Assembly (NCBI GenBank): GCA_963822945.1
Contig: CAWGJO010000020.1
Span: forward strand, 128,001 to 192,000
Direction: 5' to 3'
DNA: 64,000 bases
From: an uncultured Gemmatimonadaceae bacterium
Lineage (GTDB): Bacteria > Gemmatimonadota > Gemmatimonadetes > Gemmatimonadales > Gemmatimonadaceae
Shown: positions 19,401 through 24,301 of the stretch, piece by piece
How positions within the stretch are numbered: the stretch's first letter is position 1
Layout of the letters: each line of letters starts with the position of its first letter
Program-made: the position numbers

Positions 19401-22400
19401 GAGGGTGAATCCCTTGGCCGTGTACGGCGCGAAGTAGTGCACGTTGCGGAACGGCTCGGCGGGCACGTCGAGCGCCTCGTACAGCCGGCGGTCGGCGTCG
19501 TCCAACGCGCCGGGCTGGTCGAGGAAACAGAGATCGGGCCCCTTCACGTTGAAGCACACCGCCGCCACGGAACCCTTCTGCTCGGGGAAATGCCGGAACA
19601 CCGACGCGAGCAGCCACTCGATGGCGCTGGTCTTCGTGGCGAGCCCCGACACGCCCGTGATGTTGAGATGCGCCGCCTCGGGACCGAGCAGGAAGTCGGC
19701 GTCCAGGTACACCGGCGCCTCCGTGCCGCCGGCGCGGTAGAGACCCACGGGAATCCCCGTCTTCGCCTCCGGCCGGAGATAGCCGTCCATGCGCAGCGCC
19801 ACGGCGACGTCGTCGGGCGTGGCCAGGAACACCTCGCCCATCGGCACCGGCTGGAGCGGCTCTTCGGGCACGTGGCGCAGCACGGCCGCCGTGTAGAGGC
19901 GGATCTCGGTGCGTCGCGTGGCCGACAGCGATTCGCCGCCCGGGGCGCCGTCGTGGCCGAGCACGTCGTGCAGCGGGGTCTGCAGATCCGTGTAGCTGAA
20001 CCCCTCGGTCACCACTCCGTAGACGTGCGGGATCGTGCCGTTCACCGGCTCGGTTCCCTGCACGCGCACGATCGTACCGATGCCCACCGGCGAATCGAGG
20101 GCCGTCCAGAACCCGAATTCGTGCGGCGTGTTGGGTTTGCGCTCGGTCGCGACCACGCGTCCGAGTACCGGCGATGGGGTCATTGCGTGGCCTTGAGAAG
20201 GACTTCGCAGTCGCGGATGCCGTACACCATCGTGTCCCAGCGCGCATCGGGATGCGCCGTGGGCGTGCGTTCGCCGAGCACGCGGCGTGAGATGCCGTCG
20301 GCGCGCGCGGCAATCCGCTCGCGCGTCGCATCGGGCTCGTGGCGCACTTCCACGCGCACCAGCCCCCACAGCGGATCCCGTCCCTCGGGATCGCGCAGCC
20401 GCAGGTACCAGCTCGCCACCGGTACGCGGCTGGGCGACGCCACCACGAACACGCTCGTGCGCTCCCCGGCCTTCAGGTCGTAGACGACCCGGCGCGCCGC
20501 GCGGTCGCCGTACAGCGTGCGATGGCTCTTGATCACGCCCACGGGCTGAACGGCGCGCGCCAGCACCACCGAACCGCGCAGGCCGCCGTCCACGTACAGG
20601 GCGTCGCGGCGTTCGGCGCACCACGCCTGCGCCAACTGGAGCTCGAGCTGTTCGCGGTCGCGCTGGATCCGTGTGAGCGCGGCGTCGCGCTGCGCCGCCG
20701 GATGCGCATCGGCCAGCGCCGGCTCATCGGCCGAGGTGTCGTGTACGTCGAGGCCCAGCGATCGGATGGCCTCCCACTCGCCGGGTTGGAGGGCAGCCGC
20801 GGGGACGTACAGCCGATGCGACCGGGCGTGCCGCCAGGTTGCCGCGTGCCCCTCGTGCCACTCGCGAATCACCGCCGCCGCGACGCCGCTCACGATGGGC
20901 ACTCCGTCCTGTGCGTGGGCAACGAGGGTGCTGCGCTGCGTGCCGTCGAGGAAAGCCGCGAAGGGTGCAACGGCGACGTCGGGCGGCGTGTGGACCCGCA
21001 GGACCTCGTCCTCCACGACCTCGGCGGCCGCGAGCACCGGCGGGTCGACGGCCGTGGACAGCTCGAGCGGCGTGCCTTCGGTACTGAGCGACGCCGAGGG
21101 AAGCGCGGCGGCGAGCGCCCGTTGCAACTGGTCGAGCCTCCACGGCCCCTGGGGCGCGGCGGGAGCGAGAATCATTCCGAAAGGTATCCGGCCGGGCGGC
21201 CGGCCGTCACTCGACGCCGATGTCCCAGGCCTGTTGCAGGTCGCCCTTGGAATAGGCGCGGAACGCGGTGAGCGTCTGCGTCCGCTGGATGCCGGGCACC
21301 GTCGGAAACACCTCGGTCACGACGCGCGCGATCTGGTCGTATTGCGGTACGCGCACCACCGCCACCAGGTCCCAGTCGCCCGACACCGAATACACCTCCG
21401 CCACCCCCTCCACGCCGGCGAGCATCTTGGCGGCGTTGGGAATCTGGGTGGGCTCCACGCGAATCAACACGATGGTCGTGATCACGGCACTTGGGGAAAG
21501 GGTGGAACGTTCAGGAGCCACAGGCCGGCAACATGGTTCGTGGCATCCACGTCGAACAACAGGTCCTGCGCCACACGCACCGGGGTGGTTTCCCGTGGCC
21601 CGCCGAATCGGAAATGAAAGATACGCCCCTGCAGGTCCGATTCGGCGGCCATCGGCGTCTCCACCTCCAGCGAGGTCACCGCCGCCGGCGCCTCCGAGGC
21701 GGGCAGCCGGACGGTCACCTCGCGGATGTTCGACGGCGCCACGAGCCCTCCACGCCGGGTCACGTCTGGCCAGACCGCGATCTCGATGCCGCAGACCGTG
21801 TCGTCCTGCAGGTCGAAGATGATCCACGAGCCGTCGGCGCCCTCCACCTCGACCGATCCGGTGGAGCCGGCGGCGGCAGGTGACGGTCGGACTCGCGCCG
21901 ACAGGATCTCCGTGTCCGGATCCCGGCGATACACGACTCGCGGTGGCGCCCCTTTGCGAGGCCCGAGTTGGACGGCGATGTTCACGACGATTCTCCAAGA
22001 GTGGCTTGCCGCCAATTTCGGACCGGATCTGCCCGGTGGCGATCCGAAATAGCCCCGAGGGGGCCATACCACGCCCCGGGCGCTGCGCGGCGGCGCAAAG
22101 ATACTTCCGCCGTCCGGTCACGGTAACGGGCCGGATCCGGCCGCCGGGCCGATTTGTGGGTATCTTTCGCGCCACGCAATTTTGACAACGCGGCCGAACG
22201 CCGCCTCGACACCGGTGAGGATCTGTGGAACAGGATGGAACCGAGACTGCGGGCATAACCCGCGGCTTGAATGCGGCATTCGTACTGCCTCCGGACCCGA
22301 CGCGCGCCGCGTCGTTCCTCACCCCGGCTCTCGACCGCCTGGATCCGGCCATGCCGGGCCCCCAGCTCCTGCTGGTGACCGCCGATGCCGAAGCCGCGAT

Positions 22401-24301
22401 GGCGCTCGCCGCGGCCGCCGACGCGATCGGTGGCCCGCGCGGGTACACCGTACTCGCGGCCACGTCGGCGGCCCGCGCCTCCCGCATCCTTCGCCTGGCA
22501 CCGCCGCAGGTCGTGGTCGGCGCGCCCGATGCCCTCGTGGAGCTCCTCCAGCGCTCGGCGATGAAGCTCGGCGGGGTCCGCCAGCTCGTATTCGCCTGGC
22601 TCGACGATATGTTCGACGTACACGCGGCGGCACTCGAAACCCTGCTCGCCGAAGTGCCCAAGGATGCCGCCAGGACCGTCGTCGTCCGCGCCATCTCGCC
22701 GGCCGTGGAACAGTTCATCGAACGCCATGCCCGGCGTGCCCGGCGCGTGTTGCCCGCCGTCGAGGAAGGGCTGGCCGCGATGCCCATCCAGTTCGTGGTG
22801 GTGCACGAAGCGGCGAAGCCGGTGGCGCTCCGCCGTGTGCTCGACGAACTGGACCCCGCCAGCGCATTCGTCCACATGCGCGACCCCCGGTCCGACGCCC
22901 AGGCGCGCGCCGTGCTCCGGACCATGGGCTACGCGGAAGACGGACCGGTGCGGGCCGGAGTGGCGATGGACGCCGACGCCGAGCTGCTCGTTCTCTACGA
23001 CCTGCCCGCCACGCGTGCCGAACTCCGCGACCTGACGGGAGAGCGGACGCCGCGCCACGTGGTCGCGCTCGCGCAGACGCAGCAGCTGCCGGTGCTGCGG
23101 GACATCGCCGGCGGCGTAATCAACCCGTTCGTGCTGCCCGAGGCAGCCGCCCGGGCGCGGGCCCGCGAGGAACAGCTCCGCGCCGCGCTGCGCGACGAGT
23201 TGGCGGCCGGCGGATACAGCCACGAGCTGCTGGCGCTCGAGCCGATGCTCGCCGAATTCGACGGCATCGAGATCGCGGCCGCCGCGGTGCGCCTGCTCGA
23301 AGCCGAACGGCGGCGCGCGGCCGCTCCCAAGTCGCTCGCGGCGCCCCGCATGGCCCGGCTGTTCATCAACGCCGGCCAGACCGACGGAATCGGCGCCGGC
23401 GACCTGGTGGGAGCCATCGCCAATGTGGCCGGACTCACTGGCGCCGACGTCGGGCGCATCGAGTTGCGCGACCGGCACGCGCTGGTCGAGGTGCCGGAGA
23501 CGGTGGCGGCCGCCGTGGCCCAGAAGCTCACCGGCGTCACGGTCAAGGGACGCCAGATCGTGGCGCGCATCGATCAGGAGCGGCCGGAGCGCTCGGGCCG
23601 CGACCGCCCCGATCGCGGGGATCGCGGAGATCGTGGGGACCGGGGGGGCGCTGGCCGCGGCGGGGCTGGCCGTGGCGGACGGCCCGAGCGTGGAGACCGC
23701 GCCGGACGGGGAGCGCCGTCGCGTGGTCCGCGGACGCCGGAGGACAGGAAGCGGTGACGTCGGACACGTACTTCACGGCCCGCGCCGGCTGGATCGAAGT
23801 AATTGCCGGCGTGATGTTCAGCGGCAAGAGCGAGGAACTGCTCCGGCGCGTGCGCCGGGCCGCGATCGCCAAGCGCCGGGTCCAGGTGTTCAAGTCGCAT
23901 CTCGACGAGCGGTACGGGGGTGTGTTCAAGGTGTCGAGCCACGACGGCCGGACGGCCGAAGCGATTCCCGTGGACACCGCCGCGCAGATCGCCGAGCGCG
24001 TGAACGTCGATACCGAAGTGGTGGCCATCGACGAGGCGCAGTTCCTGGACGAGCGCATCGTGACCCTCGCCACCGAACTGGCCGGCCGCGGGATGCGCGT
24101 GATCGTGGCCGGTACGGATACGGACTTCCGTGGCGAGCCCTTCGGCGCGATGCCGGAGCTGATGGCCGTCGCCGAGATCGTGGACAAGCTGCACGCCATC
24201 TGCGTGCGCTGCGGCCACCCGGCGAGCCGCAATCAGCGGCTGATCAACGGCAAGCCGGCGCTCTACAGCTCACCCACGATCATGGTGGGCGGGGCGGACA
24301 C

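What a model noticed while it worked through the whole genome (the two positions that open the first line are those of the whole stretch)
22225..23757. DEAD-box pseudo-helicase (DeaD/DbpA architecture, all ATPase motifs lost) conserved in Gemmatimonadales
g01013 has the two RecA domains and the C-terminal DbpA RNA-binding domain of DeaD/CsdA but has lost the Q motif, Walker A, DEAD and motif VI. It is kept next to thymidine kinase-coaE across the order: a bacterial catalytically dead DEAD-box protein, probably an RNA-binding scaffold.
Evidence so far: Alignment with the genome's two RhlE proteins: GKT is replaced by PPDxxR, LDEAD by AWxDE/D, HRxGRxGR is absent. Of the best 120 of 739 homologs, 0 have G[ST]GK[ST] and 0 motif VI; 5 DExD strings lie off-position. 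Model pLDDT 84; best Foldseek hits DbpA (E 8e-21) and CshA. Found in 2 of 2 family and 3 of 7 other order genomes, beside tk in 5 of 5 loci.
(Added by a program. Inside this text positions count along the whole contig: contig position 128,001 is position 1 of the stretch shown here. "Call 12" and the like, gene names such as g00115 and contig names such as C1 are that model's own, and its searches are not shown. The text may have been shortened before it was handed on; [...] marks where a part breaks off. The agent that wrote the report below was given it as the finding of a first reader that could run no searches.)

Follow-up and report, generated by a model that had tools for sequence, protein, structure and literature searches.

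The report
Class-wide dead DEAD-box RNA helicase
This gene encodes a look-alike of the bacterial RNA-unwinding enzyme DeaD that has lost its ATP engine yet is kept by selection across almost a whole bacterial class, so it probably works as an energy-independent RNA-binding scaffold even though databases often label it an active helicase.

Summary
Confirmed. Window 22225-23757 (+) encodes a 510-aa protein built like DeaD/CshA: two RecA domains, dimerisation helices, a DbpA-type RNA-binding domain (RBD) and an RG tail. In register, 0 of 120 homologs keep the Walker A Lys, the DEAD Asp/Glu or motif VI. The core's RNA-contact motifs are lost too.

It is not a dying gene: one clade, dN/dS 0.09-0.34, found in 174 of 183 class genomes and 0 of 17 from other classes. 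Active DeaD occurs in only about 41 of the 183.

Three refinements. (1) Decay is graded: four families outside Gemmatimonadales keep the Q motif and a Gly-rich P-loop. (2) The RBD was lost about four times, each time leaving a basic RG tail; core plus dimerisation helices are the constant part. (3) The link to tk is order-level synteny (45 of 55 versus 0 of 35 loci).

Best reading: an ATP-independent, probably dimeric RNA-binding scaffold or annealer (about 60%); the function is inferred. No paper describing the family was found; a 2011 survey noted a Gemmatimonas DbpA-domain gene as an exception. This scan found the family before on other DNA.

The parts
22225..23757 (+). DeaD/CshA-derived pseudo-helicase gene, 510 aa
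22216..22218 (+). in-frame TGA just upstream of the GTG: no Q-motif region can be encoded in this frame
22264..22752 (+). RecA1 domain (aa 14-176), fold kept, motifs I, Ia, Ib, Ic, II and III degenerate; family-specific Arg at 13, 150 and 171
22285..22308 (+). relic of Walker A (LPPDPTRA in place of AATGTGKT)
22591..22611 (+). relic of the DEAD box (FAWLDDM in place of LDEADEM)
22780..23130 (+). shortened RecA2 domain (aa 186-302): motif IVa deleted, motifs V and VI truncated
23131..23322 (+). dimerisation helices homologous to those of CshA/DeaD (aa 303-366)
23350..23574 (+). DbpA-type RNA-binding domain, PF03880 (aa 376-450)
23575..23754 (+). disordered Arg/Gly/Asp-rich tail (aa 451-510), pLDDT mostly below 50
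23754..24374 (+). thymidine kinase, start overlapping the pseudo-helicase stop; syntenic neighbour, not shown to be a partner
24580..25206 (+). dephospho-CoA kinase coaE; syntenic neighbour

Best explanation
A pseudo-helicase that arose once from a dimeric DeaD/CshA-type DEAD-box helicase in the ancestor of most Gemmatimonadetes. Shown: it lacks the residues for ATP hydrolysis and for the core's usual RNA grip, keeps the fold, and is under purifying selection. Inferred: it dimerises through the retained helices, binds RNA through the RBD and/or the basic RG tail, and so tethers or anneals RNA without ATP. The dead RecA domains would serve as a spacer or docking surface in ribosome assembly or RNA turnover. 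The cellular target is not identified.
For: ATPase residues: 0 of 120 homologs and 0 of 35 Gemmatimonadales loci keep K, D, E or the motif VI Arg pair; 0 of 35 loci from other orders keep the catalytic Glu or motif VI. Core RNA contacts are lost: motif Ic Arg is Asp in 51-82% per group, motif IVa is deleted, and RecA2 median net charge is -1 to -6 versus +5 in active DeaD. The core profile matches CshA 5ivl over residues 40-424, dimerisation domain included, E 2.3e-42. 23 of 59 members hit PF25399 DeaD_dimer at E<=0.1. RBD and dimerisation helices are the best conserved segments, 0.58 and 0.47 versus 0.42 and 0.33 for the RecA domains. All 13 RBD-less members read carry a tail of net charge +8 to +20. 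CsdA anneals RNA without nucleotide (PMC3590231, passages). The RBD is the main RNA anchor of CsdA, CshA and Hera (PMC11850223, passages). RhlE tails bind RNA, phase-separate and, for RhlE2, bind RNase E (PMC11260450, abstract).
Against: No biochemistry; RNA binding and dimerisation are inferred from homology, and no complex prediction was obtained. The PF25399 hits are weak (best E 1e-4; query E 0.21). The RBD was lost about 4 times, so specific RBD recognition cannot be the whole function. The query's RBD loop is less basic than in active DeaD ([10 protein letters not shown] versus, for example, GRKAKIRPGD). No conserved RNA-metabolism neighbour was seen. 9 of 183 class genomes, some nearly complete, gave no match.
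Confidence: 0.6

Rival explanations
1. A protein-protein adaptor: the conserved function lies in the dead RecA core plus dimerisation helices, which dock or regulate an enzyme (an active helicase such as RhlE, a nuclease or a ribosome factor), as for Utp25 or MUT-15. RNA binding is secondary.
For: Core plus dimerisation helices are the only part present in all members, while the RBD was lost about 4 times. The dead domains stay under purifying selection (RecA1 0.12-0.33, RecA2 0.08-0.42). R13, R150 and R171-A172 are conserved across the class at positions where active DeaD has other residues.
Against: No partner was identified. Active DeaD is present in only about 41 of 183 genomes, so it cannot be the obligatory partner. 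The RBD has the lowest dN/dS in 10 of 13 pairs. The new Arg residues may be structural; I could not inspect the model's coordinates.
Confidence: 0.22
2. A nucleotide-sensing pseudo-ATPase: the ancestral form still binds ATP or ADP through the Q motif and P-loop without hydrolysis and couples this to RNA binding; Gemmatimonadales later lost the sensing.
For: In 26 members from four other families, F..L..L, PT..Q and AxxGxG stay at 0.86-1.00 family-balanced frequency against a core mean of 0.52; 8 of the 24 most conserved core columns fall in these motifs. The Walker B Asp is kept in 27 of 35 and the Walker A Lys in 4 of 35 loci outside the order. GSGKT is intact in Longimicrobium-type members.
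Against: It cannot apply to this gene, which has no Q motif or P-loop. The Lys is replaced in most members. These residues also pack the domain, so their conservation may be structural.
Confidence: 0.1
3. A decaying pseudogene, or an enzyme that is still active through unusual residues.
For: dN/dS is higher than in active DeaD (0.09-0.34 versus 0.03-0.21). Many database names say 'ATP-dependent RNA helicase DeaD'.
Against: No stop inside any of the 150 listed matches; 174 of 183 genomes; the tree follows family taxonomy. Motif VI and motif IVa are physically deleted and no substitute catalytic residue is conserved class-wide.
Confidence: 0.05
4. A functional partner of thymidine kinase or nucleotide salvage.
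For: Overlapping stop and start here; tk follows in 45 of 55 Gemmatimonadales loci.
Against: 0 of 35 loci from other orders have tk nearby; there the neighbours include a Na/alanine symporter or a K+ channel. In 6 of 7 f2/f3 loci examined an HU-like gene on the opposite strand separates it from tk.
Confidence: 0.03

Closest known systems
CshA (Geobacillus, PDB 5ivl), E. coli DeaD/CsdA and T. thermophilus Hera: dimeric DEAD-box helicases
   Same: Order of domains (RecA1, RecA2, dimerisation domain, RBD, tail); profile match to CshA over residues 40-424 at E 2.3e-42; structural match Z 16.7, rmsd 18.2, 330 aligned.
   Different: All ATPase motifs and the core RNA-contact motifs are lost; RecA2 is shortened (motif IV to Va median 50 versus 75 aa); the RBD is missing in some lineages.
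E. coli DbpA / B. subtilis YxiN
   Same: PF03880 RBD; top Foldseek hit.
   Different: This protein has dimerisation helices between core and RBD and no active core; recognition of 23S hairpin 92 was not tested.
Utp25/Def (eukaryotic SSU processome pseudohelicase; PMC9539457, first part of the text and passages seen)
   Same: DEAD-box fold with vestigial motifs, conserved, proposed scaffold or cofactor.
   Different: Eukaryotic and of independent origin; this family derives from DeaD, keeps an RBD, and is missing from some genomes.
Deinococcus radiodurans PriA pseudohelicase (PMC4504706, abstract seen)
   Same: Bacterial, lineage-wide loss of helicase motifs with nucleic-acid binding kept.
   Different: A DNA replication-restart protein, not a DEAD-box RNA helicase; it has been tested biochemically.
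C. elegans MUT-15 (bioRxiv 10.64898/2026.09.04.749402, abstract seen)
   Same: Pseudohelicase acting as a scaffold in RNA processing.
   Different: Eukaryotic RNAi complex with known partners; none is known here.

Membership tests
Active DEAD-box RNA helicases | Two RecA-like domains | tested here: met
   RecA2 is shortened
Active DEAD-box RNA helicases | Q motif | tested here: not met
   Absent in the query and in Gemmatimonadales; kept in four other families
Active DEAD-box RNA helicases | Walker A GKT | tested here: not met
   0 of 120 homologs, 0 of 35 order loci; Lys in 4 of 35 loci outside the order
Active DEAD-box RNA helicases | Motif II DEAD | tested here: not met
   DE pair in register in 0 of 120, 0 of 148 and 0 of 70
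Active DEAD-box RNA helicases | Motif III SAT and motif VI HRxGRxGR | tested here: not met
Active DEAD-box RNA helicases | Core RNA-binding motifs Ia, Ib, Ic, IV, IVa, V | tested here: not met
Active DEAD-box RNA helicases | RNA-stimulated ATPase and unwinding | not testable with these tools
   needs an assay
DeaD/CshA/Hera dimeric subfamily (ancestry) | Dimerisation domain after RecA2 | tested here: met
   Profile match covers it; PF25399 weak in 23 of 59
DeaD/CshA/Hera dimeric subfamily (ancestry) | C-terminal RBD | tested here: met
   PF03880 E 1.1e-22 in the query; absent in 13 relatives read
DeaD/CshA/Hera dimeric subfamily (ancestry) | Forms a homodimer | not tested
   no complex prediction was obtained
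DbpA/YxiN | Specific binding to 23S rRNA hairpin 92 | not testable with these tools
   needs a binding assay
Pseudohelicases (Utp25, D. radiodurans PriA, MUT-15) | Helicase fold with catalytic residues lost | tested here: met
Pseudohelicases (Utp25, D. radiodurans PriA, MUT-15) | Maintained by selection | tested here: met
Pseudohelicases (Utp25, D. radiodurans PriA, MUT-15) | Measured lack of activity and a demonstrated non-catalytic role | not testable with these tools
   needs assays and genetics

The most novel reading that the evidence does not exclude
A bacterial class replaced its ancestral DeaD engine with an ATP-free dimeric RNA chaperone or scaffold, and living genomes preserve the whole series: a nucleotide-binding but non-hydrolysing form (Longimicrobium-type), a nucleotide-blind form (Gemmatimonadales), and RBD-less forms in which a new Arg-rich surface on the dead core and a condensate-forming tail carry the function.
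Probability: 0.3. Interest if true: 0.85.

Novelty: new variant of a known kind. Interest (0 to 1): 0.68.

Why it matters
Pseudohelicases are rare in print, and my searches found no bacterial DEAD-box example described. This family is near-universal in a widespread bacterial class, where it is far commoner than active DeaD. It is a natural experiment on an open question: what dimeric DEAD-box proteins do without ATP (annealing, tethering, scaffolding). The graded loss of motifs gives a testable path from enzyme to pseudoenzyme. It also exposes a systematic mis-annotation as 'ATP-dependent RNA helicase DeaD'.

Tried and rejected
Mis-called start hiding a Q motif: rejected, in-frame stop at 22216-22218. 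Off-register DExD as a relocated catalytic site: rejected, a variable LDE(L/V/A)D in a RecA2 helix. Obligate partner of active DeaD: rejected by distribution. RBD loss tied to the presence of active DeaD: no clear trend on tallies (at least 7 of 13 versus about 11 of 22). Functional link to tk: rejected as a class-wide rule. Cis-acting RNA: no Rfam match in the window or in 16 loci; no consensus promoter upstream. Plasmid copies: none. Expression: one metatranscriptome held 0.14 of the words, and short contigs of relatives cover parts of the gene, which does not show transcription. ESM Atlas: best hits are Gemmatimonadota clusters; a Spirochaetota cluster at 0.88 is a lead only. Literature searches found no description of the family; the library lacks most subscription journals, and supplements were not read.
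Full report
OBSERVATION. The ORF 22225-23757 (+) gives 510 aa from a GTG. A TGA in the same frame at 22216-22218 rules out an N-terminal extension, and the stop overlaps the start of thymidine kinase. Pfam finds the DbpA RNA-binding domain (aa 378-448, E 1.1e-22), a sub-threshold DEAD match (E 0.0016) and no Helicase_C. NCBIfam DbpA, DeaD and CshA models match far below their cut-offs. The best solved relatives by sequence are DeaD (5gju), DbpA and CshA. The AlphaFold model has pLDDT 86.8 and pTM 0.69 with a disordered tail. Foldseek ranks DbpA (E 2.1e-18) then CshA; VIA-align ranks CshA 5ivl first (Z 16.7, rmsd 18.2, 330 aligned, tied with eIF4A entries). The own genome (88% complete) has no other DbpA-domain gene and two intact RhlE-type helicases.

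MOTIFS. I aligned the query with 70 related loci, 31 active DeaD from the same class and the two RhlE-type proteins. Six duplicate loci and two loci from unpublished genomes were dropped; one canonical locus missed by the RBD probe was read separately. All 31 active proteins keep the Walker A Lys, the DE pair and the motif VI arginines. In register, these are kept by 0 of the best 120 of 739 homologs, 0 of 148 further representatives (2 have a Glu alone) and 0 of 35 Gemmatimonadales loci. The five DExD strings lie at query position 207. The core's RNA-contact motifs are also gone: PTRELA becomes xDAEAA, GG becomes TS, the TPGR Arg is often Asp, and QxxR is deleted. The motif IV-Va segment shrinks from 75 to a median of 50 aa, and RecA2 turns from basic to acidic. 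The roles of these motifs are established knowledge, summarised in PMC9539457 (first part read).

ANCESTRY. A 59-sequence profile of core plus following helices matches CshA over residues 40-424 at E 2.3e-42, dimerisation domain included. 23 of 59 members hit PF25399 DeaD_dimer weakly. The architecture is therefore that of DeaD/CshA/Hera, which dimerise through this domain (PMC11850223, passages). In a quick IQ-TREE tree of 104 proteins, the 71 dead proteins form one side of a branch (SH-aLRT 100) and group largely by family, as expected for vertical descent. The tree is midpoint-rooted and has no out-of-phylum DeaD, so the parent lineage is not identified.

DISTRIBUTION. In 200 genomes of the phylum, 165 of 183 class genomes have a core-profile match at E<=2e-55; active DeaD scored no better than 2.4e-52. 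Nine weaker cases were read and belong to the family, one of them only as a contig-edge RBD fragment, giving 174 of 183. Four unpublished genomes (G055, G095, G155, G180) are in this count; without them it is 170 of 179. Not all 174 were read: the rest are assigned by score. It was not found in G053, G096, G112, G177, G098, G085, G190, G103 and G185 (94-98% complete), nor in 17 genomes of other classes (best E 1.4e-25, partial matches). 'Phylum-wide', as earlier scan notes put it, is thus too broad for this sample. Active DeaD with an RBD occurs in about 41 of 183 genomes (33 read, the rest inferred from a second PF03880 match).

SELECTION. Nei-Gojobori dN/dS over the whole protein is 0.09-0.34 in 13 pairs from five families, against 0.03-0.21 in 4 active pairs. 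Every domain is below 0.43, and the RBD is lowest in 10 of 13 pairs. dS approaches saturation in some pairs, and pairs share members.

GRADED DECAY. In 26 members of families f4, f5, f7 and f8, the Q-motif residues (F..L..L, PT..Q) and a Gly-rich P-loop remain at 0.86-1.00 against a core mean of 0.52. The Walker B Asp survives in 27 of 35 loci outside the order and the Lys in 4 of 35, while the catalytic Glu and motif VI survive in none. Close relatives of an f8 protein with intact GSGKT are titled Longimicrobium or Longimicrobiaceae. The parsimonious order is hydrolysis and coupling lost first, then the adenine and phosphate pocket in Gemmatimonadales and, separately, in f6. That order is an inference.

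WHAT IS CONSTANT. Thirteen Gemmatimonadaceae genes read have core and dimerisation helices but no RBD, as do 22 of 124 long representatives. On a core-only tree of 40 proteins this needs 4 changes (bootstrap 4-5; at least 2 forced by strong branches). All 13 keep an Arg/Gly/Pro-rich tail of net charge +8 to +20, whereas f2/f3 members keep the RBD with almost no tail. No member read lacks both. Family-specific conserved residues include R13, R150, R171-A172 and the LxPL...VAAA dimer signature. From the recalled DEAD-domain topology the three arginines should cluster on the face opposite the lost active site; I could not inspect coordinates, and they may be structural.

NEIGHBOURS. tk follows in 45 of 55 Gemmatimonadales loci fetched around the gene and in 0 of 35 loci from other orders. 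In f2/f3 an antisense HU gene intervenes; elsewhere transporters or a K+ channel adjoin. The link is synteny rather than evidence of function.

MECHANISM. Shown: fold, loss of catalytic residues, single origin, selection. Inferred: dimerisation, RNA binding by RBD and tail, and ATP-independent tethering or annealing. Precedents are CsdA annealing without nucleotide (PMC3590231, passages), the RBD as main RNA anchor, and RhlE tails that bind RNA and RNase E (PMC11260450, abstract). In DbpA the RBD binds hairpin 92 mainly through helix alpha-1 (PMC8536315, passages); that helix (GDLVGAI) is conserved here, but specificity is untested. Rivals are a protein-docking adaptor (0.22), a nucleotide sensor in the other orders (0.10), decay or hidden activity (0.05) and a tk partner (0.03). 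No complex prediction was obtained, so dimerisation stays open.

PRIOR KNOWLEDGE. Described pseudohelicases are Utp25, D. radiodurans PriA (abstract) and MUT-15 (abstract). [quoted passage not shown] That is probably this family, with the dead core unrecognised; I did not verify the gene. Searches found no description of the family; paper supplements were not read. Four earlier scan reports on other DNA reached the same basic reading; they are not independent support. One says the gene sits at the same chromosomal spot throughout the phylum, which my loci contradict.

VERDICT. A real, selected, class-wide DEAD-box pseudo-helicase; a new variant of a known kind, with its function inferred. Interest 0.68.

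Noticed in passing
window 13465-21175 (-): nurA-like, herA-like, sbcD, sbcC and GNAT genes in one string; herA weak by NCBIfam, nurA named from earlier scan notes rather than from a profile hit.
   Followed up: partly
window 21207-22072 (-): A stand-alone AsnC/RAM-domain gene and a weak DUF2283 gene lie divergent from the pseudo-helicase in many Gemmatimonadaceae loci.
   Followed up: partly
L088:3873-4157, L109:2627-2914 and four more f2 loci: An HU gene (PF00216 confirmed for two) sits on the opposite strand between the pseudo-helicase and tk.
   Followed up: partly
L057:1977-3023; L052:4957-6297: Outside Gemmatimonadales the neighbours include a TrkA-gated K+ channel downstream or a Na/alanine symporter upstream.
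   Followed up: partly
G103, G185 (family f9): No match to the core profile even at E 1e-8 and no DbpA domain, although most other genomes give RhlE-type cross-hits; they may lack DEAD-box helicases.
   Followed up: no
L110 (G076): An otherwise canonical DeaD with DECD in motif II.
   Followed up: no
ESM Atlas, rank 20: A Spirochaetota cluster (576 aa, Helicase_C in 15% of members) scores 0.88: possibly an independent degenerate helicase; lead only.
   Followed up: no
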